In this document: one piece after another, positions 1-63,242 of the stretch | Numbering within the stretch: the stretch's first letter is position 1 | How the letters are laid out: every line of letters starts with the position of its first letter | Source: Methylovulum miyakonense HT12 | Lineage (GTDB): Bacteria > Pseudomonadota > Gammaproteobacteria > Methylococcales > Methylomonadaceae | Reading direction: 5' to 3' | DNA length: 64,000 nt | Assembly (NCBI RefSeq): GCF_000384075.1 | Contig: NZ_KB913025.1 | Span: forward strand, 2,744,450-2,808,449 | The notes under the pieces: generated by a model | The model's input: the letters and a program-made list of their open reading frames with translations, nothing else | Told to the model about the DNA's origin: nothing | The model's database searches: none | Position numbers and translations under genes: made by a program

Positions 1-3000
1 GTGAACGGGGTGAAGTCAGTCAGGCGGCCCAGTCCGTCATAGACATAGTTGTTGGCGTTGCTGACGGTGGTGTCGGTGAATCCCCCGTCGCCCAGTTGGG
101 TGACGTTGCCGATACGGTCATAGGCGAGCTTTTTGGTGCCGGTGTTGAGGGTGTAGCCGTCGATGCGCCCGTCGCTGTCATAATGGCGGCTGACGGCGGG
201 CGTGCCGGTGACGGTGCTGAGGGTGTAGCTTTTGACCCCGCCCCAGGGCTGGTAGGCGAAGGCGTCGAGCAGGGTGGTGAAAGTACCGGTTGGGCTTTGG
301 GCGTAGGCGAGCTGGCTGGGGCGTCCGGCAGGGTCATAACTGTAACCGACGGTGAAGCCGGAGGGGTAGGTCATCGTCGCCACGCGCCCGCTGATGGCAT
401 CATAGGTATAGCTGACGCTCAGGTTGCGGCTGGCCTGGGCGGTGCTGATGCTGTGGGTCTTGGTTTGTAGGCGGCCTTCGCCGTCGTATTGCCAGTCGGT
501 GCTGCCGCTGGGGTCGTCGACGTGGCTGAGTTGCCCGACGGCGTTTTTGGCAGGCGGGTTGGCGGTCAGGTCGGCGGTGTTCAGGTCATAGCGGTAGCTG
601 ATGGTGCTGTCCACGGTGGTGGCCTGGGCGGCACCGTTGGCATCGGCGAGGTAGGTGCTGTCCGTCAGCAACCTGTCCAAGGCGTCGTAAGTGTATTGGG
701 TCGTGGTGTTGCGGGCGTCAATGCGGGTCTTGAGGTTGCCGGCAGGGTCGAAGCCCGTGTTGTTGGTGACGCCGCGGTCTTGGCTGTTTTCCTGGCTTTG
801 GTTGCCGAGGCCGTTAGTGGTGAAGCCCGTGCCATTGGGGCGCGGGCTGGCGGTGCTGTTGGCGCGCGGGTCTTTGACTTGGGTGAGTTGCCCTAGGCCG
901 TCGTAGCCGTAGGTGGTCAAGTAACTCGTTACGCTATCTATAACGTTGGTCAACAAATCCATGCGATCCAACGCGTCGTAGCCGTTGAGGGTCTGTTGCT
1001 TGTTGGCGGCGGTGCCGTCGGGGTAGTCGGTGGTGGCGGTCAGGTTGCCGTTAGGGTCGTAGTTGTATTCGCTGACCAGTTGGTTGGCGGCGTTGAGCAG
1101 TTTCCACAACCGGCCCAGGTTGTCGAAGCGGCGGTTGACGCTGGTGTAGGTGATTTCGGATGCGCCGCTGCCGGTGACCGTGCGTTCTTTGGTGCGGTTG
1201 CCGAGGTTATCCAACACGTACTTGAGCTTTTCTCCGGCGGCGTTTTGGATGGTGTTGAGCCTATGCGCATCGTCATAGGTGTAGGTGGTGGTGCCCGTGG
1301 CGGGGCTGGTGACGGTGTTCAGCAAGGTGTTGGGGTAGTAGGCCAATTGGGTGCTGCGTCCCGCCGTGGTGACGGTCTGCAATTGCCCGCGCGGGGTGTA
1401 GGCCAGTTGGGTGACGACACCGTTGGCGGCGGTGATTTGGGTCGGGCGGCCGTGGGCGTCGTAGCTGTCGTAGGTGGTCACTTGCCCTAAGGCGTTGGTG
1501 GTGGTTTTCAGCATCCGGCGGTTGTTGACGTTGGTCTCCGTGTCGGTGTAATACCCGTATTGGCTCTTGTCCGACGCGTCGCTGACATTGTTGCGTGGGC
1601 CGTCAACCGACAGGGTTTGCCCGAAGGCGTTGTAGGTGTATAGCCATTTGCGGGTGCTGGCCGGGCTGGCGGCAAGGCCTAACGCTCCTGTGCCATCGTT
1701 GGTGGACTGGACGGTCTTGCTGCACAGCACGCCGTCGGCGACCGCGCCGTTTTTGCCGCATTGGGGGGCGTTGGCGTTGGTGCTGTCGCCCCACGCCCAG
1801 GTGGTCAGGCGTTCGGGTTCGGCCTTTTTTTCGGGGACACGGAAGCGGGGATGCCATTGGGTGGTGATTTTGCGTTCGGCGGTGTTGGCGGTGGGGGCTG
1901 AGCCTTGCACGTCGGTTGGGCATTGGCCGCCCGCCAACAGCGGGCTGCCTTTCGCGATGCCTTCGATGCGCACGGTTTCCAGGTTGCGGGCGGTGTCGTA
2001 GGCGTAGCAGGTGACATTGCCGTTGAAGTCGGTGCGCTGGATGATGTTGCCGTTGGTATCGTAGCGCAAGTTGCTGGCGGAAGTGGGGCAGCTGCTAGGA
2101 TTGGGCGTGGCGGCGGGTTGGCTTTGTGACGTGACCTTGGCAACACCTTGGATGATCTGGAAATTCATCGGTTGCCCTGGGTTGAGCAAGTTGCCTGAGG
2201 TGTCACGCAAGCCTTCCGAGATGGTGCTTGATGTGCCGCTGGTGTAGGCAATGTCAACCCGGTCGATGTTTTTGCTGACATCGCCGTGTTGCGAAGAAAC
2301 GGCGAGGCCTTGGGTGTCGTAGCTCCAAGTGGCGTAACGTTGGCCGTTTTCGTCGATGATGCCGGTCAGGGCATTATGGATGCCGACGACAGGATTAGAA
2401 AAAGCGGCAGGGACGTAACTGGGGTTGTTGTATTCGTAAGTGCGTATGACAGGATTTGTAGGGGTACTTTCAGGGTAAACCACGGTGGTGAGGTTGCCAT
2501 AAGCCTCCAAGGTGTTACCGTCCTTATCTAAGTCGTATTGGTATTGATAAACGCTTCCGCCAGGGACGGTCATTTGCGCCATGCGTAGTTTTTCGTCGTA
2601 CAGAAAAGTCAGCGTATGGTGGGTGATTTGGTCGGTGACGCTAAGGAGCTTGCCACTGACGGCAACGAGCGGTGCCGGAGCTTGCGCGGCGGCGGTATAG
2701 AGGGAGGACAAGGGCGTGTCTTTGGTGCTGTAGTCCAAGACTAGGTTGACACTGCCGCTACGGTTTTTCAGAGCCTGAAGTTTTCCGTCAGTCCTGTAGG
2801 TTTCAGCGTTGTCGTTGCGGTCGGTCAGCTTCCAGCCACTGAACACGTTGTTGGAATCCTTGAGGTATTCTAGCCTGTCGGTGATGTCGGGGTCGGGTGT
2901 CCACTTGTCGGTGGCTTGGCTGTATTTGAAAACCAGTCGCCTGCCGTCATACTTGGCAACCATCGCAGTTTGTCCATCCACAGGCGGAGTGATTTCCCAA

Positions 3001-3698
3001 GTTGACGAAGTAATGGAGCGGTCATAGTAATGCCGCCATTGTGCGCCAAGATTATTGCTGGTGTTGGCTACCCCGGCATGGCTGTGATAAGTCCGTTCAA
3101 ACCGCAAGCTATTGCTGTCTTCGTAATCCTTCTCTATCTGGACTTTGTCGCCGAGACTGGTGTTAATGGGGTTGCCTTTAAATGGGCTACCAGAGCAAAG
3201 TTCAGGCGGCGGGGTTTTGGTCGGCTGAGGTGCGGTAGTGGGTTGGAGAGGACAATAGTAGTCAGTGGGGCTATTTGGAGGGAGCTGTGGATTACCAGCA
3301 AATATGAAAATGGCACTGATACTAGGAAACACCGATCGAAAGCAAAAAGGACGTTCAACGACGGCTCCAAAGTCAGTATGAATATCGTTACTGCCATTTA
3401 TACAATTCCAAGTTCTAAGATTCCCACGATAAACCTGATTAGAAGCATCAAAATTTTTTGGAAAATACCCTACCAATATTGGGAAGCCTGGAGGTGGGTA
3501 GTTAATGTAGTAACCTGGACAGCCCTCGCTTGGAGTTGAAACGTAGCCTTTTGTTTGTCCGCTATAAAGTAAACGAATAGCTGGTTCATATTCTGTTGCT
3601 ATTGTTCGGGTCGGCATTAACAGGATAGTTATAAACAGTAAAAAGATTGCTTTGATGCAAGACACTTTGAAATACCCCAAAAAACTGTCATGTTTCAT
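1..3698 (-). CDS. Rhs/YD-repeat protein, N-terminal ~1230 aa (partial; continues beyond window start). Sec-type signal (MKHDSFLGYFKVSCIKAIFLLFITILLMPTRTIA), then dozens of YD repeats.
   Basis: Reverse-complement translation from ATG at 3698 gives one uninterrupted frame to position 1. It carries recurrent YD-repeat motifs (YDALDR, YGYDGLGQLTQV, YTYDALDRLL, YDGEGRLQTKT, YSYDPAGRP, YDRIGNVTQL). The plus-strand ORFs in the track here are short antisense artefacts. The ORF is not in the track because it has no stop inside the window. Confidence 0.8.
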   Translation of the reverse strand, partial: MKHDSFLGYFKVSCIKAIFLLFITILLMPTRTIATEYEPAIRLLYSGQTKGYVSTPSEGCPGYYINYPPPGFPILVGYFPKNFDASNQVYRGNLRTWNCINGSNDIHTDFGAVVERPFCFRSVFPSISAIFIFAGNPQLPPNSPTDYYCPLQPTTAPQPTKTPPPELCSGSPFKGNPINTSLGDKVQIEKDYEDSNSLRFERTYHSHAGVANTSNNLGAQWRHYYDRSITSSTWEITPPVDGQTAMVAKYDGRRLVFKYSQATDKWTPDPDITDRLEYLKDSNNVFSGWKLTDRNDNAETYRTDGKLQALKNRSGSVNLVLDYSTKDTPLSSLYTAAAQAPAPLVAVSGKLLSVTDQITHHTLTFLYDEKLRMAQMTVPGGSVYQYQYDLDKDGNTLEAYGNLTTVVYPESTPTNPVIRTYEYNNPSYVPAAFSNPVVGIHNALTGIIDENGQRYATWSYDTQGLAVSSQHGDVSKNIDRVDIAYTSGTSSTISEGLRDTSGNLLNPGQPMNFQIIQGVAKVTSQSQPAATPNPSSCPTSASNLRYDTNGNIIQRTDFNGNVTCYAYDTARNLETVRIEGIAKGSPLLAGGQCPTDVQGSAPTANTAERKITTQWHPRFRVPEKKAEPERLTTWAWGDSTNANAPQCGKNGAVADGVLCSKTVQSTNDGTGALGLAASPASTRKWLYTYNAFGQTLSVDGPRNNVSDASDKSQYGYYTDTETNVNNRRMLKTTTNALGQVTTYDSYDAHGRPTQITAANGVVTQLAYTPRGQLQTVTTAGRSTQLAYYPNTLLNTVTSPATGTTTYTYDDAHRLNTIQNAAGEKLKYVLDNLGNRTKERTVTGSGASEITYTSVNRRFDNLGRLWKLLNAANQLVSEYNYDPNGNLTATTDYPDGTAANKQQTLNGYDALDRMDLLTNVIDSVTSYLTTYGYDGLGQLTQVKDPRANSTASPRPNGTGFTTNGLGNQSQENSQDRGVTNNTGFDPAGNLKTRIDARNTTTQYTYDALDRLLTDSTYLADANGAAQATTVDSTISYRYDLNTADLTANPPAKNAVGQLSHVDDPSGSTDWQYDGEGRLQTKTHSISTAQASRNLSVSYTYDAISGRVATMTYPSGFTVGYSYDPAGRPSQLAYAQSPTGTFTTLLDAFAYQPWGGVKSYTLSTVTGTPAVSRHYDSDGRIDGYTLNTGTKKLAYDRIGNVTQLGDGGFTDTTVSNANNYVYDGLGRLTDFTPF

Positions 3699-3850
3699 TA
3701 AAATAACTGGCCTTTTTACTTTTAAAGGTGCACCTTGCATCAGAATTACTCCTAAAGGATTTGGCTAAAAATAACTTTCCAAAATCTGCCATGTCGGGAC
3801 GGCCTCCCAATGAACGGCTCCAGCTTACTTGATCTTTTTTGATTCATTTC

Positions 3851-4006
3851 AGCGAGGTAGCCCGTATGCAGCGATAGCGAAATACGGGGTCTCGAAACCG
3901 CACAATTCCCAATTTCAAACACCCATACCGAATGAACTTGATTAAATACGGCATGGGCGGAGTTGAAAAATCCCGTAATCCGCTTTGCTCCTTACGGGCT
4001 ACTCGC
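3851..4006. repeat. Copy A of a ~155-nt structured direct repeat. It has terminal inverted repeats (agcgagg-tagccc ... gggcta-ctcgct) and two internal 7-bp hairpins (cccgtat/atacggg and cccgtaa/ttacggg).
   Basis: ~90% identical to copy B at 4491-4643. It is non-coding (only short overlapping ORFs) and its termini are complementary. Confidence 0.7.
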
Positions 4007-4036
4007 TAAAAATAACTTTCCGAAATCAGCCATGTA
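4007..4036. repeat. 30-nt motif ctaaaaataactttccgaaatcagccatgt. It is duplicated at 3773-3802 (ctaaaaataactttccaaaatctgccatgt) and flanks copy A on both sides.
   Basis: Near-identical 30-mers seen directly. This suggests the repeat unit is larger or composite. Confidence 0.6.
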
Positions 4037-4490
4037 GCTCGTTGGGGTGACATTAGGAACCCCAAGGATTGATGCCCGCCCAATGCGTTGGAGTTGGTAC
4101 CTCACCTACGGGCTTTGCTGGGGCGAATGCCCCGTCCGACAGGAAAATCCGATACGCTGTCCGAGCTTTGAAGGCGGGAGTGAGTGGCGTTGTTGCCGCC
4201 CAACGCCTTGCCTGCTACCAGCAAAAGCCCTGGCCGGAAAACAAAATTGTCCGGAAGTATAGGTGAATGTTACCGCCGGAAATATTAACTATTACCTAGT
4301 TTGAAGCGGGATACTTCACACCTTCCGCCAAACGACTTTTACTTGATTGATATTAAAAGGGAAAATATCCAGACATTTTAGGCTTGCACGTAATTCCCCA
4401 CATAAAAACTCCGGTGGGGCGGCCATTTTCTGGGCGATTTGGGTAGCGGGCGGCGACAGTTCTGATCCCCGCTATCGGCCCCGTCATTAA

Positions 4491-4643
4491 AGCGAGGCAG
4501 CCCGTATGCAGCGATAGCGAAATACGGGGTCTCGAAACCGCACAATTCCCCATTTCAAACACCCGTACCGAATCCACTCGATTAAATACGGCATGGCGGA
4601 ATTGGAAAAACCCGTAATCCGCTTCGCTCCTTACGGGCTACTC
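4491..4643. repeat. Copy B of the ~155-nt structured repeat.
   Basis: Direct alignment to 3851-4006 with few substitutions. Both hairpins and the terminal complementarity are preserved. Confidence 0.7.
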
Positions 4644-4899
4644 CTCTGCCCTCTGCTCCCTGATTAATTAAAATGGGGGGCTTTTAAAAACAGGACGTTT
4701 AATGTGTCTTGAGCCATTATCATATCCCTTAAAATACACTATTATATTCAGGGTGGAGGATGTCCGATTGGGGTAAAAAGCACATTTACCGATGGGTTAA
4801 GTCCCGGATATTTAAATGTGGATCGGATGAGTCCAATTTAACCAAAGATGCGCAAAAACGCTAACTTGAAACCTATCAATACGGGATCACCTTAATAAA

Positions 4900-5928
4900 A
4901 TGAACCGATTAATGATGCGGATTTGGCTTGTACTGGCGGTTGCCTTGGTGATGGATGGTTGTAGCAACACTACGCCTACCGCCAAGCCTGATAATGTCCA
5001 AGCCTATAGGGTCGCCCCGCCTCGGACGGCCACGGCGCAAAATTTCTATAGGCCTACAGTCCGCTCCGGGGTATTCCACAAACCTGGCGAACTGGCTCCT
5101 GCAGTGGAATTCTGGCGCAAAACCTATGTGGAGTGGCGCCGCTCGGAAGTCGCATTTCATGATGACCGCTATCTGGATGTGGTCTACGAAGTGATGGTGT
5201 TGCCTGGCGATGTCGGAGAAAGCCTGACCCGGGAACAAAAAAATATGGTCAGGCAGCGCCGGGATTTTTGGAAAGCCCAATTGGCTGTCCTAGAGGGCAA
5301 ATTGCGTTACAACGCGCCGTTAACGGTTAATGACAAGCAAATGATTGCTAAATTGAAGAGTAACGGCAGGCAACTTAACAGCGTCCTGTACGGTGCCGCC
5401 GAACGGGTGCGCGCGCAACGCGGTACCCGCGAACGGTTCATGAAAGGGTTGGAGATCAGCCGCCGCTATGACCGGCAATTTAGAAAAATCTTCCGCGATG
5501 CAGGCTTGCCGGAAGATTTGGCCTTGTTGCCGCACGTCGAATCTTCGTTCCAACCGTCAGCAAGATCCTCCGCTGGGGCGGTCGGCATGTGGCAATTCAC
5601 CAAAGGTGCGGCGAAGACCTTCATGCCTGGCGGGAGGGTGGATTTGTGCCTGGATCCCGTTGCTTCAGCCAAAGGCGCGGCAAGTTACCTGAGTTATGCC
5701 TACGGCAAGTTGGGTGACTGGCCTACGGCAATCACTTCCTACAACCATGGTATCGGCGGTATGAGGCGGGCACAAACCCAAGTTGGCCGTGATTTTGTCC
5801 GTATCGTCAAAACCTATCAGAGCCCGGCGTTCGGCTTTGCTTCCCGCAACTATTACGCCCAATTTCTGGCGGCACGCGAAATAGCCGGCAACCCGATGCA
5901 GTATTCCAGTAATATGTCCGGCCAGTGA
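4900..5928 (+). CDS. Lytic transglycosylase (SLT domain) lipoprotein-like protein.
   Basis: N-terminal signal with Cys (LVMDGCS). SLT catalytic motif ESSF...SSAGAVGMWQF...SYNHGIGG, as in the family-1 lytic murein transglycosylase fold. Confidence 0.6.
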   Translation: MNRLMMRIWLVLAVALVMDGCSNTTPTAKPDNVQAYRVAPPRTATAQNFYRPTVRSGVFHKPGELAPAVEFWRKTYVEWRRSEVAFHDDRYLDVVYEVMVLPGDVGESLTREQKNMVRQRRDFWKAQLAVLEGKLRYNAPLTVNDKQMIAKLKSNGRQLNSVLYGAAERVRAQRGTRERFMKGLEISRRYDRQFRKIFRDAGLPEDLALLPHVESSFQPSARSSAGAVGMWQFTKGAAKTFMPGGRVDLCLDPVASAKGAASYLSYAYGKLGDWPTAITSYNHGIGGMRRAQTQVGRDFVRIVKTYQSPAFGFASRNYYAQFLAAREIAGNPMQYSSNMSGQ

Positions 5929-6003: not shown

Positions 6004-8025
6004 TTACAAGAAAAAAGTATCCGCCGAAATCGCCCCTAGTGGCGGCAATGCGGTATTGATGCCTAGGGAAATGACCAAATCCGTATTGGCTTGGAATCCG
6101 GCGGTATCGTCATTGACAATCAGGTAAGAAATCCCGCCGAAAGTTTGGACAATCGCCGCGCTATTGATTTCTAACGCTTGGTTTCCGGCAAGTTTGCCAT
6201 TGGCGTCAATGAATATGTTATCAACATCGGCTTTGTCCAAACCAAACGCGTCAATGTCTTTGGCGCGGGTAAAGTGGTCTGGCTGTCCGATTGCAGCGCC
6301 CGTTTTGGATAGCAAGTCGATTTTGTCGCCATTTACACCGAAAATGTCAATTTGGTCAGGGTTCGCCAGTAAAGATTCGCCAAACTGGAAGACGTAAATG
6401 TCATTGTTGTCGAATTGCGAAGCAAAAAAATCTTGCCCCGCACCCCCATTTAAGATGTCTTTACCGTTTAATCCACCATAAATTTCGTCATTACCGCTGC
6501 CACCATAGATAATGTCATTCCCGGCATTGCCATCACTATCTCCGTAGATAAAATCATTGCCACTGCCGCCATACAGGGTGTCATCACCGGAAAAGCCGTA
6601 AATGATGTCATCCCCTCCAGCACCATTGATGATATTGTTTAAGCCATTACCTGTGATGGTGTTGGCTAGGCTGTTTCCGGTGCCTTGGATGCCATTGTCT
6701 ATCAGGATCAGGTTTTCCAGATTGGCGCTTAAGGTATATTTGCTGGCTGACGATTTGACCAGTTCATGGTCGCTTAAAGAGGTTTCGATGATGACGTCAA
6801 AAGTCCGGTCAACAAGGTAAGTGTCATCGCCTGTGCCACCGTTAAGGGTATCCACGCCTTTGCCACCATTTAGGACATCACTGCCAGCATAGCCAGTCAG
6901 AATATTATTAGCGTCGTTACCCACTAATATATTATTTTGCGCATTGCCTGTACCGTTGATGGTAGCGGTACCTAACAAGGTCAGATTTTCAAGTAAACTT
7001 CCTAAAGTAAAGCTGACATAGGAATTCACTTGGTCATAACCCGTGCCTTCTATGATTTTATCGCCTAAATTGTCGACCACATAGACATCGCCACCATTTC
7101 CTCCGTTTAAAATGTCTTGGCCTGTGCCGCCATCAAGGTAATCAAAGCCTTCACCACCAATCAGACGGTCATTTTTGCTGCCGCCCAAGAGCGTGTCATC
7201 ATCAAGGCCACCATCCAACACCACCGAACCTAAGGTAAATTTGGACGCGTCCAACAGGTTCTCGCCGTTGCCTCCAGTCAATTGCGCTTGCTCAATGCCG
7301 ACCAGCACATCCACGCCATTCGCGATCAAGCGGTCATTGCTGAGGATGAATTCCCATAAATCCCCTGAATCGACAACTTTATCAAGCCCGCTACCACCAT
7401 TGAGAAGGTCGCTATTGTCGCCACCATACAAAACATCATTGCCGGCTCCGCCATAAATCGCATCATCGCCGCCGTTACCTTTCAGGGTGTCATTGCCTGC
7501 GTTACCGTAAAGGGTGTTTTCTTCGTTGCCACCTACGAGGGTATCGTTATTGTCTGTGCCAGTAATGACCTTGCCGGGCTGGCTAGGGGAGGGGATGGAA
7601 ATCCGTAAATTGTACAAGCCTGTGGCATTGGCAAAATCCCTTTCCGCACCTGCAACGCCGAATACATAAGTGCCCGCTTTCAAAGAAGTGAGTTCTAGTC
7701 GGTAGCTATATGGGTAGTTATTGAGCTGTGCGCTGACTTGAATTTCGGTGTAACTGTCGTTGGCGGCATCGTAGCTATAGAGGCGCATTTGATAAAACGC
7801 CTGGATTGCCACGACATCGGGCGAAGATAATTCGATATAACTGTTAAGCGGTGCGGGTTTGTCTAGTTCAAAACGATAAAAATCAATTTTGTCGTTAGAC
7901 GTTATGTCGCTCAGGTAGCTGATTGTACCAGCCGCTATGTTTGTCCCTTTTATCTTGCCTAAATCGTTTGCTAAAAGGAAGGTGTTGTTATTTTCTACAT
8001 CAATAATGCCTAAATTGTTTGCCAT
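6004..8025 (-). CDS. RTX-type calcium-binding repeat protein. It has an N-terminal PPC-like domain and is a likely type I secretion substrate.
   Basis: Many GGxGxDxL/I nonapeptide repeats (GNAGNDTLKGNGGDDAIYGGAGNDVLYGGDNSD...). The N-terminal part has a DKIDFYRF...G pattern resembling the pre-peptidase C-terminal domain. There is no N-terminal signal peptide. Confidence 0.7.
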   Translation of the reverse strand: MANNLGIIDVENNNTFLLANDLGKIKGTNIAAGTISYLSDITSNDKIDFYRFELDKPAPLNSYIELSSPDVVAIQAFYQMRLYSYDAANDSYTEIQVSAQLNNYPYSYRLELTSLKAGTYVFGVAGAERDFANATGLYNLRISIPSPSQPGKVITGTDNNDTLVGGNEENTLYGNAGNDTLKGNGGDDAIYGGAGNDVLYGGDNSDLLNGGSGLDKVVDSGDLWEFILSNDRLIANGVDVLVGIEQAQLTGGNGENLLDASKFTLGSVVLDGGLDDDTLLGGSKNDRLIGGEGFDYLDGGTGQDILNGGNGGDVYVVDNLGDKIIEGTGYDQVNSYVSFTLGSLLENLTLLGTATINGTGNAQNNILVGNDANNILTGYAGSDVLNGGKGVDTLNGGTGDDTYLVDRTFDVIIETSLSDHELVKSSASKYTLSANLENLILIDNGIQGTGNSLANTITGNGLNNIINGAGGDDIIYGFSGDDTLYGGSGNDFIYGDSDGNAGNDIIYGGSGNDEIYGGLNGKDILNGGAGQDFFASQFDNNDIYVFQFGESLLANPDQIDIFGVNGDKIDLLSKTGAAIGQPDHFTRAKDIDAFGLDKADVDNIFIDANGKLAGNQALEINSAAIVQTFGGISYLIVNDDTAGFQANTDLVISLGINTALPPLGAISADTFFL

Positions 8026-8096: not shown

Positions 8097-8939
8097 TTAC
8101 ACAAAAGTAACCCGGTATTCATCGCCGAATTTTGAAAGGATGTCCAATACGGCCTGTTTCAATGTCCCGTAACTGGCATAGCACGATAGGGGCAGCCATT
8201 CATACTTGATCTTGCGCCAGACGATTTCGATCAGGTTAAGCTCAGGGCTATAGGGCGGCAGATAATGCAACACGACACCTTGCGCCATCCAGTCGTCGCG
8301 GCGTGCCAAAAAGGCACGGCTGGTGTGCATGGAAGCGTTGTCAATAATGACGACGCACGGTTTTTTATGGACGGCGTAGCCGTCGCCATAGTGTGCGGCA
8401 AACAGGTCGAAGGCCCCGGCCACCTGTTCTGTTTTGACGCGCCCTTCAACGGTGTGGAAAAAAGACCGGCTGTCCCGGGAAACAAACCCCAGGACATTGA
8501 GGCGCTGGCTATGGAAACAGGGGATTTCCAACGTCCGGCCTTTGGGTTGCCAGGCGTAAGGCACGGAGGACGCGGTGCTGAAGCCTGACTCGTCAAAATA
8601 GTACAGGCTGATTTTGTCTTCATCGGCCCATTGTTTCATGACGGTTTGGATGGCTTTGGCCTTGGCAAAGCCATTGGCACAACGCCTTCCTTTTACGGAG
8701 CGCCTGCACCGCCGCCATGAATAACCGGTTTTTTTAAAATGCGCCTTAACGTCCCGGTCGCCGACTTTTTCCGGGTCCGGGCCTCCAGAAGGGCTTGGGC
8801 CTGCTTGATTTGGCGCGGTTCTTCGTCCAATTGTGCCCGGAACAGTGCGATTTCTTCCGGCGTGTAAATCGGTGGCCGCCCGGAGCGCGGCAAATCCCCA
8901 AGCCCGCCGACGCCTTGCGCGTTGAAGCGGTCGATCCAC
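8097..8939 (-). CDS. IS630-family transposase orfB (DDE catalytic domain), expressed by -1 frameshift from orfA.
   Basis: DESGF...VIIDNASMHTS...PPYSPELNLIE motifs of the Tc1/IS630 DDE domain. The reading frame is -1 relative to orfA at the A7 run. Confidence 0.7.
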   Translation of the reverse strand: MDRPLQRARRRRAWGFAALRAATDLHAGRNRTVPGTIGRRTAPNQAGPSPSGGPDPEKVGDRDVKAHFKKTGYSWRRCRRSVKGRRCANGFAKAKAIQTVMKQWADEDKISLYYFDESGFSTASSVPYAWQPKGRTLEIPCFHSQRLNVLGFVSRDSRSFFHTVEGRVKTEQVAGAFDLFAAHYGDGYAVHKKPCVVIIDNASMHTSRAFLARRDDWMAQGVVLHYLPPYSPELNLIEIVWRKIKYEWLPLSCYASYGTLKQAVLDILSKFGDEYRVTFV

Positions 8940-9124
8940 TGGCTGATAGGGTCACGGTCAACCTGGAAAATGGCTTGTAGCTGGTTTATCGTATGCCCGC
9001 TGCCGCTCAGCAACAAGGCGTGGGCGCGTCTTCGCACCTTAAAGTTTGGGTGGGTCTTGTAAAGCGCATCCAACTCTTGCTTGTCTGTGTCGCTGAGTGG
9101 CCGGACAAATTTTAAACGTGGCAT
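8693..9124 (-). CDS. IS630-family transposase orfA (HTH/winged-helix, RSGRPP motif).
   Basis: 143 aa ending ...RILKKPVIH over the A7 run. Typical IS630 N-terminal DNA-binding part. Confidence 0.7.
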   Translation of the reverse strand: MPRLKFVRPLSDTDKQELDALYKTHPNFKVRRRAHALLLSGSGHTINQLQAIFQVDRDPISQWIDRFNAQGVGGLGDLPRSGRPPIYTPEEIALFRAQLDEEPRQIKQAQALLEARTRKKSATGTLRRILKKPVIHGGGAGAP

Positions 9125-9348: not shown

Positions 9349-10857
9349 TCAGCCCTCATAAACATCATCCTGCATAATCAAAAACAATACCCAAGAAAAT
9401 TCCCCGGTGCTGATTTTTGATCCGCAATAGCCGCATTCGGCGGTTTGTCCCATATTATCGGCGGGTGCGCCGCATTGGGGGCAACTGGTCAAGCTATACG
9501 GTGCAGTGTGGGCGGCTTTGCCTGTGCGGCGGACGAATGTCCAGTATTCGCTGTAACTGCGGCGGTTGCGTTTGGAACCGCCGATGATTTTACCGTTAGC
9601 ATCTTCGGTGTAATCAAAACACGAAGCAAAAATCCTCACCGTGATCGCTTGGTAATATTTATCCAGCTCGATTTTGGCGGGCACGATTTGGCTGATGTTG
9701 ATGTCGTCCAAACGGTTATGCCAATCGTGTTCGGCGTATAAAGCCAGCCAAAATGAATTGGCTTCATACAAACGATCTGACAACAAATGCCGCACGCCTT
9801 GCCAATCGCGCTGGCTCCAATGTTCGTAAATGCTCAGGAAATAGGCTTTTACTATGTCATCGGCAAAGGGTTGCCAAAAACTGTTCCAATCGGGTAAGGA
9901 TTGTTGTTGGATGTAACTTTGCATTTGTTCCGCCAAGCCGTCTTGCTTGATGGTTATGAGTTGCGTGCCTTGTTCCTCGGCATAAGACACCAAATCGCTA
10001 GCCGCTAAGGCAGTCGTCCGCAGTACCACGCGCTTGCTTAAATACCATTGTTTTTCACCTTTATTGATGACCGTGCCGCAATGACCGCATTCGCCGGAAT
10101 CAGTGAAGTGCGCGGGTGCGCCACACTGTGGGCAACATAAGGTTTGCATTTTGTCCGGTTCGGCGGACAGCAAGCCTTTTTGCCGATAAAACAGCCAGCG
10201 CTCGGTGACGGTGTAGCGTGTGGCTTTATCTTGCTGATGCAGGGTGTAATTGGCATCAATGACTAAACTGATGCTTTCAGTCTCTGTGCCTTGGGTACTG
10301 ATGCTTTCCCAGCGGATGCCGTTAATGACGATCTCGTTAACCGTCCACGGCGCGGCTTTTTCAAAATGCTGTTGTAGTTCGGTGCTGAGGAAAGGACTGA
10401 GATAGCTAAATTCAGGATGGGTGGAGTAGCTGTAAAACTTGGTGTAGAGCGAGTGGACAAAATCGATGAATAAAATGCCCGAAAAGTTGGGGTCGCTTTG
10501 TTTGAGCAAGTCCAGTTCATTTTTGAGGGAACTTTGCTGCCGTGATCTGTTAATTGCCGTAGGTGCGGCGACAAAGGGTTGCGGGGCGGTTTTATTTTTC
10601 AGGATGATAATTATGATGATCAGTATGATAAGAAAAAATACTAATCCCGCAGGGTTAGTGTTTACAGAAACACCGTTGTTGTAACCGGAAGAAAAGGATG
10701 GGTTATAAGAAAACGAACCGTAAGATGGTGAGCTATAAGAACCGGAAGAGGAACTATGCCCCGAACTGGAATGCCCACCGCCAGGCCGTGCTTCTGTAAC
10801 GTTAAAACAGGTCATAAGACCCAGCAATAACAGCCAAATCAACAGCATCGCTCTCAT
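9349..10857 (-). CDS. Membrane-anchored protein with a tandem [Tim44-like domain + C4 zinc ribbon] x2 architecture (YdjG-like zinc-ribbon protein?).
   Basis: Signal/TM region, G/S-rich low-complexity stretch, hydrophobic helix (FFLIILIIIIIIL), and two repeated ~180-aa modules each ending in CPQCGAP...GECGHCG / CPQCGAP...AECGYCG. Domain assignment from memory, not searched. Confidence 0.4.
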   Translation of the reverse strand: MRAMLLIWLLLLGLMTCFNVTEARPGGGHSSSGHSSSSGSYSSPSYGSFSYNPSFSSGYNNGVSVNTNPAGLVFFLIILIIIIIILKNKTAPQPFVAAPTAINRSRQQSSLKNELDLLKQSDPNFSGILFIDFVHSLYTKFYSYSTHPEFSYLSPFLSTELQQHFEKAAPWTVNEIVINGIRWESISTQGTETESISLVIDANYTLHQQDKATRYTVTERWLFYRQKGLLSAEPDKMQTLCCPQCGAPAHFTDSGECGHCGTVINKGEKQWYLSKRVVLRTTALAASDLVSYAEEQGTQLITIKQDGLAEQMQSYIQQQSLPDWNSFWQPFADDIVKAYFLSIYEHWSQRDWQGVRHLLSDRLYEANSFWLALYAEHDWHNRLDDINISQIVPAKIELDKYYQAITVRIFASCFDYTEDANGKIIGGSKRNRRSYSEYWTFVRRTGKAAHTAPYSLTSCPQCGAPADNMGQTAECGYCGSKISTGEFSWVLFLIMQDDVYEG

Positions 10858-61888: not shown

Positions 61889-62392
61889 ATGTCGAGTTAC
61901 GGCCCCCATATGATGAGTTTATTCATTACCCCATGGAACTGGCAATTGGCGAAAAAATACATTGTACGACTGACAGAAGAAGAACGTACTGATTTGGAAA
62001 GTTTGATTCATAAAGGCAAAGTGGCTGCCCATAAAAGGCTTCACGCAGAAATCCTGCTCAAGACAGATAGTAGTGAATGGGGCGACCCGTGGCTGGATAG
62101 TCAAATCAGTGAAGCCTTTGGCATTTCCACACGCACCGTTGAACGAGTCCGGGAACGATGGGTTCAAGAAGGCTTGGAGTCCGCCTTAAACCGGGCTAAA
62201 CCGATCCGGGTTAAAAGCCGTGTCATTGACGGCGAAAAGGAAGCGCATCTGCTCGCGTTAGCCTGTGGTGATGCCCCTGATGGACGCAGTCGCTGGACAC
62301 TGAGATTGCTTGGGCAGCACATGGTTGAACTGGGCCATGTGGAAAGCGTATCCCACGAAACTATCCGGCAAACACTAAAAAAAATGAGTTGA
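61889..62392 (+). CDS. IS630-family transposase orfA (HTH).
   Basis: Ends TLKKMS* over the A8 slippery run. Confidence 0.7.
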   Translation: MSSYGPHMMSLFITPWNWQLAKKYIVRLTEEERTDLESLIHKGKVAAHKRLHAEILLKTDSSEWGDPWLDSQISEAFGISTRTVERVRERWVQEGLESALNRAKPIRVKSRVIDGEKEAHLLALACGDAPDGRSRWTLRLLGQHMVELGHVESVSHETIRQTLKKMS

Positions 62393-63081
62393 AACCTTGG
62401 CAGAATAAAGAATGGTGTATCCCGGCTAAAGAGAATGCGGAATTTGTCTGCGCTATGGAAGATGTACTGGCTGTTTACAAACGCTCGTATGATGACACTC
62501 ATCCGCTGGTTTGTATGGACGAAAGCAGCAAGCAACACATTAAGGAAACACGTCAGCCGATACCGGCAAAACCAGGCACCGTCGAAAAGTATGACACGGA
62601 GTATGAACGTAATGGGGTGAGTAATCTGTTCCTATTTTTTGAACCGTTAGAGGGGAAACGGCATGTGGTGGTAACGGATCAACGGACGGCGGTGGATTGG
62701 GCGCATCAAATCCGCAACCTGGCTGATGTCGAGTACCCTCGTGCTGAGCGCATCACACTGGTTATGGATAATTTGAACACCCACACGGGAGCATCGCTGT
62801 ATAAGGCGTTCGCCCCTGAGGAAGCGCGAAGAATTCTGGATAAATTGGAAATCCACTACACGCCCAAACATGGCAGTTGGTTAAATATGGCGGAAATAGA
62901 ATTGAGCATCTTGTCCCGCCAATGTCTGGATCGGCGCATTCCGGACCAAGAAACATTAAGGATGGAAATCGCAGCTTGGCAAGAACAAAGAAATGCTATT
63001 GCTCAGCCTATGGAATGGCGATTTACCAGTGAAGATGCCCGGGTAAAATTGAAAAAACTTTACCCGACAATAAAAAAATGA
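62389..63081 (+). CDS. IS630-family transposase orfB (DDE domain), -1 frame.
   Basis: DESSKQ...VVTDQRTAVDW...VMDNLNTHT...TPKHGSWLNMAE DDE/D motifs. Confidence 0.7.
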   Translation: MKPWQNKEWCIPAKENAEFVCAMEDVLAVYKRSYDDTHPLVCMDESSKQHIKETRQPIPAKPGTVEKYDTEYERNGVSNLFLFFEPLEGKRHVVVTDQRTAVDWAHQIRNLADVEYPRAERITLVMDNLNTHTGASLYKAFAPEEARRILDKLEIHYTPKHGSWLNMAEIELSILSRQCLDRRIPDQETLRMEIAAWQEQRNAIAQPMEWRFTSEDARVKLKKLYPTIKK

Positions 63082-63087
63082 CTGAGT

Positions 63088-63242
63088 ACTAGTGCTCAAT
63101 CATTGATTTTTTGTCGGGTCAGTCTAAACCCGTAGGGGCGGACGGTTGTCCGCCTTTTTTATGGCCTGTGCCAACATCCGGAGCGATCAGGCGAGCAACC
63201 GCTCGCCCCTACGAAAATAATACTGATAATTCAACATTGACT
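63088..63242. mobile_element. 155-bp MITE derived from the adjacent IS630-family element. TIRs ctagtgctcaatca / tgactgagcactag. It shares CTAG with the IS right end.
   Basis: Termini are 13/14 inverse-complementary to each other and 13/14 identical to the IS TIR. Internal hairpins but no ORF. Confidence 0.55.
63137..63161 (+). terminator. Intrinsic terminator ggcggac-ggtt-gtccgcc + TTTTTTAT, carried inside the MITE.
   Basis: Perfect 7-bp GC-rich stem followed by T6. Confidence 0.7.

What the first reader, a model, noticed from the sequence alone, without database searches (positions are those of the whole stretch)
3700..4900. Duplicated ~155-nt structured element (plus a duplicated 30-nt flank) in the 1.2-kb non-coding zone upstream of the Rhs gene
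Two ~90%-identical copies sit at 3851-4006 and 4491-4643. Each has complementary termini (agcgaggtagccc / gggctactcgct) and two internal 7-bp hairpins (cccgtat..atacggg; cccgtaa..ttacggg). The substitutions between copies mostly preserve pairing. A 30-nt motif (ctaaaaataactttcc...) occurs on both sides of copy A.

This could be either a family of small structured RNAs or a TIR-bearing miniature element.
Basis: seen in the sequence. Interest (0 to 1): 0.6.

Follow-up and report, generated by a model that had tools for sequence, protein, structure and literature searches.

The report
REPIN mobile-element copies, methanotroph genome
The two ~155-nt repeats are copies of a REPIN, a small non-autonomous mobile element built from two inverted "GTAG + hairpin" REP sequences and copied by a RAYT tyrosine transposase; this is a known kind of bacterial repeat, here seen as a new family in methane-oxidising Methylococcaceae.

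Summary
Two direct copies (3851-4006 and 4491-4645, 92% identical) lie in the 1.2-kb non-coding zone between a minus-strand Rhs gene and an SLT transglycosylase gene. A 31-nt flank motif is duplicated at 3764-3794 and 4005-4035.

Each copy is a head-to-head pair of REP units: GTAG, a 7-bp stem, a 13-14-nt loop, with an ~82-nt conserved spacer between them. That is a REPIN.

- **Spread:** the 32-nt REP unit and full ~155-nt doublets occur in many unrelated contexts in Methylovulum and other Methylococcales assemblies.
- **Transposase:** in a metagenome contig 98% identical to this window, a RAYT gene sits directly between copies of this REPIN. It matches NCBIfam REP_Tyr_transpos at 189 bits, is 48% identical to E. 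coli RayT, and hits PDB 4ER8. A Methylovulum MAG shows the same arrangement.
- **Structure:** across 18 copies the local REP hairpins are 99% paired, with T:A/A:T swaps. The alternative end-to-end pairing is mismatched at those columns in 10 of 18.
- **Negatives:** no Rfam family, no target-site duplications, no coding signal.
- **Open point:** the whole ~790-nt block (REPIN, 484-nt spacer, REPIN) recurs in one unrelated metagenomic context. This is either a composite copied as a unit or an assembly chimera.

Verdict: a new member of a known kind, of low to moderate interest.

The parts
3851..4006 (.). REPIN copy A: a head-to-head doublet of two inverted REP units with an ~82-nt conserved spacer. 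Termini are AGCGAGGTAG... and ...CTACTCGCT.
   Evidence: rod-like fold, z -6.8/-8.4. It is 96.6-98.7% identical to copies in other contexts (L022 10998-11153; L029 10926-11000).
3857..3888 (+). Left REP unit of copy A, type 1: GTAG + CCCGTAT + 14-nt loop GCAGCGATAGCGAA + ATACGGG.
   Evidence: The identical 32-mer is found in Methylovulum MAGs and metagenomes.
3972..4002 (-). Right REP unit of copy A, type 2, read on the minus strand: GTAG + CCCGTAA + 13-nt loop + TTACGGG.
4491..4645 (.). REPIN copy B, 92% identical to A. Its right terminus is partly diverged (CTACTCCT).
4497..4528 (+). Left REP unit of copy B, with GCAG instead of GTAG. It is probably no longer a RAYT substrate. The orthologous copy in L025 has lost the tetranucleotide through a 10-nt deletion.
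   Evidence: In E. coli, changing any base of GTAG abolishes binding and cleavage (PMC3479197). Applying this here is inference by analogy.
4611..4641 (-). Right REP unit of copy B, type 2, with an intact GTAG on the minus strand.
4005..4035 (+). 31-nt flank motif, right-hand instance, directly abutting copy A.
3739..3794 (+). Left-hand instance of the flank motif (3764-3794), preceded by a degenerate match to the right end of the element (3739-3763). This is read as a relic of a tandem 'REPIN + flank' duplication.
   Evidence: 3739-3794 vs 3978-4035, 78% over 58 nt, E 1.6e-6. Tandem REPIN clusters that include flanking sequence are described in PMC3116915.
4007..4490 (.). 484-nt non-coding spacer between the two copies. 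It is part of a ~790-nt block (3850-4639) that recurs in L027.
   Evidence: 93.6% to L027, 89.7% to ortholog L025; no fold signal; no RAYT remnant; no Pfam match; no protein homologue.

Best explanation
The two repeats are copies of a REPIN, a REP doublet forming a hairpin. In Di Nocera's terms it is a head-to-head heterodimer of GTAG-type REPs. This REPIN family belongs to Methylococcaceae methanotrophs.

Anatomy: each end is a REP unit made of the tetranucleotide GTAG followed by a 7-bp stem and a 13-14-nt loop. The two units are inverted and separated by an ~82-nt spacer that is conserved within the family.

Mechanism, inferred from the E. coli TnpA_REP/RayT work: the element encodes nothing. 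A single-copy HUH/Y1 tyrosine transposase (RAYT), encoded elsewhere in the genome and itself flanked by these REPINs, binds the REP hairpin in single-stranded DNA. It uses GTAG as a guide, cleaves at a CT dinucleotide and rejoins strands. This copies or excises REPINs and builds clusters.

At this locus:
- The two copies are old residents of a variable intergenic zone.
- Copy A looks intact.
- Copy B has a mutated GTAG and is probably decaying.
- The duplicated 31-nt flank is a trace of a tandem 'REPIN + flank' duplication.

Shown here: the anatomy, dispersal to many contexts, the RAYT association in relatives, and conservation of the local hairpins. Inferred: the catalytic mechanism, present-day activity, and presence of the RAYT in this window's own genome.
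For: 1. REP anatomy. All four ends are G(T/C)AG + 7-bp stem + 13-14-nt loop.

2. Dispersal.
- A 23-nt REP pattern hit 15 loci in Methylovulum, Methylotuvimicrobium, Methylococcales/'Chromatiales', Legionella, Methylophilaceae and Bradyrhizobium. The units occur singly or as inverted pairs with spacers of about 10 to 160 nt.
- Full ~155-nt doublets at 72-99% identity occur in more than 20 places with unrelated flanks.
- One is a tandem cluster of 4-5 copies with 221-243-nt spacing in L022.

3. Cognate transposase.
- Contig Ga0082335_1000514 contains the ortholog of window 277-5675 at 98.3% identity (L025).
- On that contig, L023 3162-3695(-) encodes a 177-aa protein. It is 47.6% identical to E. 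coli RayT (E 2.6e-49), matches NCBIfam REP_Tyr_transpos at 189 bits against a cut-off of 80, matches Pfam Y1_Tnp, and hits PDB 4ER8 TnpA_REP at E 2.3e-47 with the HUH and Tyr motifs aligned.
- It is flanked by a half REPIN (3045-3139), full REPINs (3726-3879 and 3957-4108) and a further half.
- The same arrangement, with the REPIN about 40 nt from the RAYT start, is in Methylovulum MAG loci L018 and L014.

4. Structure.
- In 18 copies the two local hairpins are 99.2% paired.
- The innermost stem pair of each hairpin switches T:A to A:T in 8 cells and is never broken there (0/500 shuffles reach the covariation score).
- The end-to-end alternative for the same columns is unpaired in 10 of 18 copies and does not beat shuffles.

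5. Literature. Head-to-head GTAG dimers with conserved 20-100-bp spacers, heterodimers, clusters and RAYT-flanking arrangements are the described norm (PMC3733652; PMC3116915).
Against: - No RAYT gene is present in the 64-kb window itself. Its presence in this genome is inferred from a 98%-identical metagenome contig.
- Only 4 REP units occur in 64 kb, so high copy number in this genome is not shown.
- Both copies sit at the same positions in the two orthologous contigs (L020, L025), so there is no evidence of recent movement at this locus.
- No true empty site was recovered. More distant SLT orthologs have different upstream genes.
- The loops (13-14 nt) are at the large end of the range described for REPs.
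- The Pfam Y1_Tnp score of the RAYT only just passes (23.4 vs 23), although the NCBIfam and PDB matches are strong.
Confidence: 0.9

Rival explanations
1. A classical MITE: a deletion derivative of a DDE insertion sequence (for example one of the IS630-family elements in the window), moved by cut-and-paste through its terminal inverted repeats.
For: The element has inverted ends and is about 155 nt, a typical MITE size. Two IS630-family transposase genes (DDE_3 + HTH) lie in the window at 8097-9124(-) and 61889-63081(+).
Against: There are no target-site duplications at 18 copies; IS630-type elements duplicate TA. The conserved module is a 32-nt GTAG-hairpin unit that also occurs singly, and as pairs with spacers of about 10 to 160 nt, in other taxa. 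That is REP behaviour, not TIR behaviour. The gene found flanked by the element is a Y1/HUH RAYT, not a DDE enzyme. The two IS630 copies share no DNA similarity with each other, and BLAST of the element against the window found no significant match outside the two copies.
Confidence: 0.03
2. A family of small structured RNAs, or cis-regulatory RNA elements, that act on the divergent Rhs and SLT transcripts. The DNA repeat would be secondary.
For: The predicted folds are strong (z -5 to -8). REPs in other bacteria are known to act in transcripts as stabilisers, terminators or translation modulators (PMC3733652). This could be an exapted, additional role.
Against: There is no Rfam match, even at E<=10. 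Both strands fold about equally well, as expected for a DNA palindrome. Only the two local hairpins are conserved and covary. Copies occur in either orientation and in varied contexts, including tandem clusters and RAYT flanks. No promoter-like or terminator-like site is associated with the copies. The differences between the two copies are not compensatory.
Confidence: 0.05
3. The real unit is the ~790-nt block 3850-4639 (REPIN, 484-nt cargo, REPIN), a composite element copied as a whole. The two 155-nt repeats would be its direct terminal repeats.
For: L027 9556-10350 carries the whole block at 93% identity, between a penicillin-amidase gene and an unrelated ORF. Homology ends exactly at the outer REPIN ends. 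The cargo is closer to L027 (93.6%) than to the true ortholog L025 (89.7%). L027 shares the second REP family with the window, so it comes from a related organism.
Against: There is only one extra instance, on an 11-kb metagenome contig, and assembly chimeras at 155-nt repeats are common. All other REPIN copies (more than 20) occur without the cargo. The cargo has no recognisable gene, RAYT remnant or structure. This does not contradict the REPIN reading; it would be an addition to it.
Confidence: 0.2
4. Remains of a degraded protein-coding gene, or of a decayed RAYT gene between its flanking REPINs.
For: RAYT genes are about 530 nt and are flanked by REPINs. The spacer here is 484 nt and is flanked by REPINs.
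Against: tblastn with the related RAYT, and blastn with its gene, give only noise against 3699-4899. The ORFs have no Pfam hits even at E<=1. The 71-aa ORF has no homologue among 5.8 billion proteins. Indels against the ortholog are 4, 1, 11 and 1 nt.
Confidence: 0.02

Closest known systems
REPINs (REP doublets forming hairpins) with their RAYT transposases, as defined in Pseudomonas fluorescens SBW25 (Bertels & Rainey 2011, PMC3116915)
   Same: Two inverted REP units with a conserved spacer form one long hairpin. Copies are dispersed in extragenic space. Tandem clusters include flanking sequence. A REPIN cluster lies next to the RAYT gene. Singlets and half copies occur as decay products.
   Different: This doublet is longer: about 155 nt with an ~82-nt spacer, against the 71- and 110-bp doublet lengths used for SBW25. 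The REP loops are large (13-14 nt). The two REPs of most copies are of different subtypes (heterodimer). The host lineage is Methylococcaceae. Excision has not been demonstrated here.
E. coli REP/BIME elements and TnpA_REP (RayT/YafM; PDB 4ER8; PMC3479197)
   Same: Both have a GTAG tetranucleotide 5' of an imperfect hairpin. Two REP subtypes combine in inverted pairs, like the y/z REPs of BIMEs. The associated transposase is 48% identical to RayT and conserves the HUH and catalytic Tyr motifs.
   Different: The stem, loop and spacer sequences differ. The E. coli REP stem is longer and has internal mismatches. Binding of IHF or gyrase, and other BIME functions, are not testable here.
GTAG-tagged REP super-family, HH heterodimers (Di Nocera et al. 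2013, PMC3733652)
   Same: The GTAG tag lies outside the stem. Stem length falls within 5-13 bp and loop length within 2-20 bp. Head-to-head dimers have conserved 20-100-bp spacers. Homo- and heterodimers, clusters and REPtrons (RAYT + REPs) all occur.
   Different: No term beginning with 'Methyl' occurs in the main text of that paper, so no Methylo-named genus is mentioned there. Assignment to one of its numbered GTAG families was not made.
IS200/IS605 non-autonomous derivatives (PATEs)
   Same: Mobilisation by an HUH/Y1 enzyme that recognises subterminal hairpins in single-stranded DNA.
   Different: PATEs keep distinct left and right IS ends in one orientation and derive from tnpA/tnpB elements. 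Here both ends are the same REP module in inverted orientation, and the enzyme belongs to the RAYT clade (NCBIfam equivalog).

Membership tests
GTAG-type REP sequence | Short (20-40 nt) imperfect palindrome with a conserved GTAG tetranucleotide at the 5' foot, outside the stem | tested here: met
   Three of the four units in the window carry GTAG + 7-bp stem + 13-14-nt loop (31-32 nt). The fourth has GCAG. Of the 36 units in the 18-copy alignment, 30 have GTAG/CTAC; the six exceptions are GCAG (2), CAAG (2), TAAG (1) and CTTG (1).
GTAG-type REP sequence | Hairpin maintained by selection (stem pairs conserved or compensated) | tested here: met
   The local stems are 99.2% paired in 18 copies. 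The innermost pair switches T:A to A:T in 8 cells with none broken. 0 of 500 shuffles reach the covariation score, and slid controls give 23-44% pairing. Caveat: the other 12 pairs are almost invariant and say nothing either way.
GTAG-type REP sequence | Extragenic and repeated many times per genome | tested here: inconclusive
   The position is extragenic in the window. There are only 4 units in this 64-kb window. About 19 units occur in 22 kb sampled from the 98%-identical contig (L022, L023, L025), and several contigs per Methylovulum or 'Chromatiales' MAG carry units. A whole-genome count for this organism was not possible.
REPIN | Two REPs in inverted orientation, a short conserved distance apart, able to form one hairpin; the doublet, not the single REP, is the conserved replicating unit | tested here: met
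   The whole ~155-nt doublet, including the spacer, is alignable across 18+ copies at 72-99% identity. It folds rod-like with z -5 to -8. Types 1-2', 1-1' and 2-2' all occur.
REPIN-RAYT system | A RAYT (REP-associated tyrosine transposase, HUH/Y1) gene flanked by the same REPs/REPINs in the genome | tested here: met
   This is met in relatives, not in the window itself. L023 RAYT 3162-3695(-) is flanked by REPIN copies, and lies on the contig that carries the 98%-identical ortholog of this locus. L018 and L014 in a Methylovulum MAG show the same. No RAYT is present within the 64-kb window.
REPIN-RAYT system | Mobility: excision or new insertions, and RAYT-dependent cleavage at GTAG/CT in single-stranded DNA | not testable with these tools
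   The only evidence is indirect: near-identical copies (96.6-98.7% to copy A) in other contexts (L022 10998-11153, L029 10926-11000). Both copies are fixed in the two orthologous contigs.
DDE-type MITE | Terminal inverted repeats matching an IS, plus target-site duplications | tested here: not met
   The flanks of 18 copies show no direct repeats. BLAST of the element against the window found no significant match outside the two copies, and the two IS630-family regions share no DNA similarity with each other.
Described RNA family (Rfam 15) | Match to a covariance model at or near the gathering score | tested here: not met
   There were 0 matches at gathering scores in the whole window. At E<=10 in 3600-5000 there were only two chance-level hits (mir-9461, H19_2), both outside the repeats.

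The most novel reading that the evidence does not exclude
Two REPINs in direct orientation can carry intervening DNA. The ~790-nt block 3850-4639 (REPIN, 484-nt non-coding cargo, REPIN) would then be a composite unit copied to a second, unrelated locus (L027) by the RAYT system or by REPIN-guided recombination. That would make REPIN pairs behave like the ends of a composite transposon.
Probability: 0.15. Interest if true: 0.55.

Novelty: new member of a known kind. Interest (0 to 1): 0.25.

Why it matters
- **Annotation:** the result explains an odd-looking structured duplication as a standard class of bacterial selfish or commensal DNA. This keeps it from being annotated as a novel RNA.
- **Taxonomic reach:** it adds a REPIN-RAYT system in Methylococcaceae methanotrophs. 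The family has two REP subtypes and an unusually long, conserved spacer, and could serve as a strain-typing or population marker in these uncultured lineages.
- **Open question:** if the ~790-nt composite is real, REPIN-RAYT systems, usually regarded as moving only themselves, would be able to relocate intervening DNA.

Tried and rejected
- **Rfam:** at gathering scores on the whole window, and at E<=10 on 3600-5000, nothing relevant was found.
- **PLSDB plasmids:** BLAST of the unit in distant mode gave no match.
- **Exact-protein look-up of the SLT gene:** not on record.
- **First RAYT motif scan:** a regex on six-frame translations of the first 19 loci and the window found nothing because the pattern was too strict. 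tblastn with E. coli RayT then found the RAYTs.
- **Spacer as a RAYT relic or a coding region:** rejected.
- **Spacer as a structured RNA:** z -0.7 on both strands.
- **Whole-rod pairing as the conserved structure:** rejected in favour of the two local hairpins.
- **Search for an empty site in SLT orthologs at ~80% identity (L031-L035):** the upstream genes differ and no REPs are present, so these loci give no clean pre-insertion site.
- **IS630-derived MITE:** rejected.
- **Promoter and terminator scan of the zone:** one weak promoter-like site at 4717-4745 outside the repeats, and no terminators.
Full report
**1. Observation**

Window 3699-4899 is non-coding. It lies between an Rhs gene on the minus strand (ATG at 3698, open to the window edge) and an SLT-domain lipoprotein gene at 4900-5928 on the plus strand.

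- Two direct copies are present: 3844-4004 and 4484-4643, 92% identical with one 1-nt indel. Measured from the conserved AGCGAGG terminus they run 3851-4006 and 4491-4645.
- They are the only two copies in the 64-kb window. No shuffle of the window gave any match to their end motifs.
- The 31-nt motif GCTAAAAATAACTTTCC.. is at 3764-3794 and 4005-4035. The similarity runs further left: 3739-3794 matches 3978-4035 at 78%. The left instance is therefore a decayed right end of the element plus its flank.
- Each copy folds into a long rod on either strand, z -5.2 to -8.4.
- The claim that substitutions between the copies preserve pairing fails. None of the 13 differences is compensatory.

**2. Anatomy**

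Each end of each copy is the same module: the tetranucleotide GTAG, then a 7-bp stem and a 13-14-nt loop.

- Left ends (type 1): GTAG CCCGTAT GCAGCGATAGCGAA ATACGGG.
- Right ends, read on the minus strand (type 2): GTAG CCCGTAA GGAGC(A/G)AAGCGGA TTACGGG.
- The two modules are inverted, with GTAG outside, and are separated by about 82 nt.
- Copy B's left module has GCAG instead of GTAG.

This is the architecture of REP sequences paired head-to-head, that is, a REPIN (PMC3116915; PMC3733652).

**3. Related sequences**

Genome scan. A 23-nt degenerate REP pattern scanned over one genome per species returned 19 loci.
- Four, from Clostridia-type MAGs (L001, L005, L008, L017), have no REP unit. L001 and L005, the two read, show no hairpin context, so these four look like chance matches.
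- The other 15 come from Methylovulum MAGs, Methylotuvimicrobium sp. KM1, Methylococcales and 'Chromatiales' MAGs, Legionella and Methylophilaceae MAGs, and Bradyrhizobium WSM1743.
- Outside Methylovulum only the 32-nt module is shared. It occurs singly or as inverted pairs with spacers of about 10 to 160 nt, sometimes with a REP of a different sequence as partner.
- In Methylovulum the whole ~155-nt doublet, spacer included, is conserved at 72-78% in unrelated flanking contexts.

Metagenome scan. The 32-mer returned 10 loci.
- L025 and L020 are the orthologous locus: window 277-5675 at 98.3% and window 1-5034 at 97.9%. Both copies are in place in each.
- The 98-kb contig that carries L025 also carries L022 and L023.
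- L022 has a tandem cluster of 4-5 doublets with 221-243-nt spacing, plus further copies.
- Copies 96.6% and 98.7% identical to copy A sit in other contexts: L022 10998-11153 and L029 10926-11000.

Host. The closest named relatives of the SLT protein are Methylobacter, Methylosoma and Methylovulum, at 74-78% identity. The host is therefore a Methylococcaceae-type methanotroph without a close reference genome.

**4. The transposase**

E. coli rayT was taken from MG1655 and used in tblastn against all fetched DNA.
- It found a full-length homologue at L023 3162-3695(-): 177 aa, 47.6% identity, E 2.6e-49.
- It found a second at L018 1462-1857, and the first 22 codons of another at the edge of L014. 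L018 and L014 are both from Methylovulum MAG bin_110.
- The L023 protein matches NCBIfam REP_Tyr_transpos (equivalog) at 189 bits against a cut-off of 80.
- It matches Pfam Y1_Tnp.
- It hits PDB 4ER8 TnpA_REP at E 2.3e-47. The HUH motif (LPDHLHTLW) and the catalytic tyrosine region (VDYIHWNPVKHG) are aligned.

The gene is bracketed by the element: a half copy at 3045-3139, full copies at 3726-3879 and 3957-4108, and a further half at about 4116-4200. The nearest REP lies 36-40 nt from the RAYT start codon in L023, L018 and L014. This is the REPtron, or 'REPIN cluster next to RAYT', arrangement described for Pseudomonas and E. coli. No RAYT lies in the window itself.

**5. Which structure is conserved**

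I aligned 18 copies (A3).
- RNAalifold predicts the end-to-end rod, but its pairs are almost invariant and so uninformative.
- The informative columns are the innermost stem positions. Within each REP they are always Watson-Crick, T:A or A:T, in 36 of 36 units.
- The competing end-to-end pairing of the same columns is T:T or A:A in 10 of 18 copies.
- Formal counts for the local hairpins: 99.2% paired, 8 two-sided changes, and 0 of 500 shuffles reaching the covariation score.
- Formal counts for the end-to-end alternative: 91.2% paired, with 98 of 500 shuffles reaching the score.

The selected unit is therefore the REP hairpin with its GTAG foot. That is what a RAYT recognises in single-stranded DNA in E. 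coli, where changing any GTAG base abolishes binding and cleavage, and cleavage occurs at a CT dinucleotide (PMC3479197).

**6. Rivals**

- *DDE-type MITE.* No target-site duplications at 18 copies. The conserved module behaves as a REP, and the associated gene is a Y1 enzyme. The window's two IS630-family elements share no DNA similarity with each other, and BLAST of the element against the window found no significant match outside the two copies.
- *Small-RNA family.* No Rfam match. The element folds on both strands, occurs in either orientation and in clusters, and has no associated promoter or terminator. An exapted RNA-level role cannot be excluded.
- *Degraded gene or RAYT relic in the 484-nt spacer.* No similarity, no Pfam match, no homologue for its 71-aa ORF, and indels that are not multiples of three.

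**7. Unexplained**

The whole block 3850-4639 (REPIN A, 484-nt spacer, REPIN B) is present at 93% identity in L027 9556-10350(-).
- There it lies next to a penicillin-amidase gene and an ABC-transporter gene.
- Homology stops exactly at the outer REPIN ends.
- The spacer is closer to L027 (93.6%) than to the true ortholog L025 (89.7%).
- L027 also carries the window's second REP family, so it comes from a related organism.

Either a REPIN-bounded composite was copied as a unit, or the 11-kb metagenome contig is a chimera joined at the repeats.

**8. State of the two copies**

- Copy A has both GTAG feet and both stems intact.
- Copy B's left foot is GCAG. In L025 the tetranucleotide has been deleted altogether. 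By analogy with E. coli this end is probably dead.
- Both copies are fixed in the three near-identical sequences available.
- SLT orthologs at ~80% identity have other upstream genes and no REPs in about 68 kb. This shows only that the region is variable.

**9. Verdict**

This is a real feature, correctly spotted. It is a REPIN (GTAG-REP head-to-head heterodimer) family with a cognate RAYT in Methylococcaceae: a new member of a well-described kind. Interest is low to moderate. The only part that could be new is the possible composite.

Noticed in passing
window 63130-63215 (also L027 421-501): A second, different REP doublet: GTAGGGGCGGACGGTTGTCCGCC (63132, +) and its inverted partner GTAGGGGCGAGCGGTTGCTCGCC (63212, -). 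Each has a 7-bp stem and a 4-nt loop, with a ~35-nt spacer between them. It lies just after an IS630-family transposase gene and is flanked by near-repeats TGACTGAGTACTAGTGC / TGACTGAGCACTAGGGC. The same REP type occurs as a doublet in L027.
   Followed up: partly
window 3850-4639 vs L027 9556-10350: The ~790-nt block (REPIN, 484-nt spacer, REPIN) recurs at 93% identity in an unrelated gene context, with homology ending at the outer REPIN ends. It is either a composite unit or an assembly chimera.
   Followed up: partly
L023 3951-3966 and 4098-4118; L009 ~2955-2975; L029 ~10460-10480; L027 ~9700-9715: REPIN termini often carry short tandem duplications of the 7-8-nt end unit, for example CTACTCGCTACTCGCTACTCG and AGCGAGTAGCGAGTAG. 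The unit is bounded by CT dinucleotides, which are the cleavage site of E. coli TnpA_REP. This may be a footprint of RAYT cleavage and rejoining, but that is speculative.
   Followed up: no
window 8097-9124 (-) and 61889-63081 (+): Two IS630-family transposase genes. In each, an HTH_32/HTH_29 N-terminal ORF and a DDE_3 ORF overlap in different frames, so each is either frameshifted or a pseudogene. The two share no DNA similarity with each other.
   Followed up: partly
window 1-3698 (-): The Rhs gene core is 61-65% G+C, against 42-50% in the neighbouring DNA. SLT orthologs in relatives have entirely different upstream genes. The Rhs gene and the REPIN zone therefore lie in a variable, probably acquired, segment.
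   Followed up: no
L012 (Bradyrhizobium WSM1743), L015 (Legionella MAG), L016 (Methylophilaceae MAG), L006 (Methylotuvimicrobium KM1): The 32-nt REP unit is nearly identical (0-2 mismatches) across alpha-, beta- and gammaproteobacterial assemblies. Its pairing partner and spacer differ between them. This suggests either horizontal spread of the RAYT/REP system or strong constraint from RAYT recognition.
   Followed up: no
window 6004-8025 (-): A 673-aa protein with nine RTX calcium-binding nonapeptide repeat stretches lies just downstream of the SLT gene.
   Followed up: no
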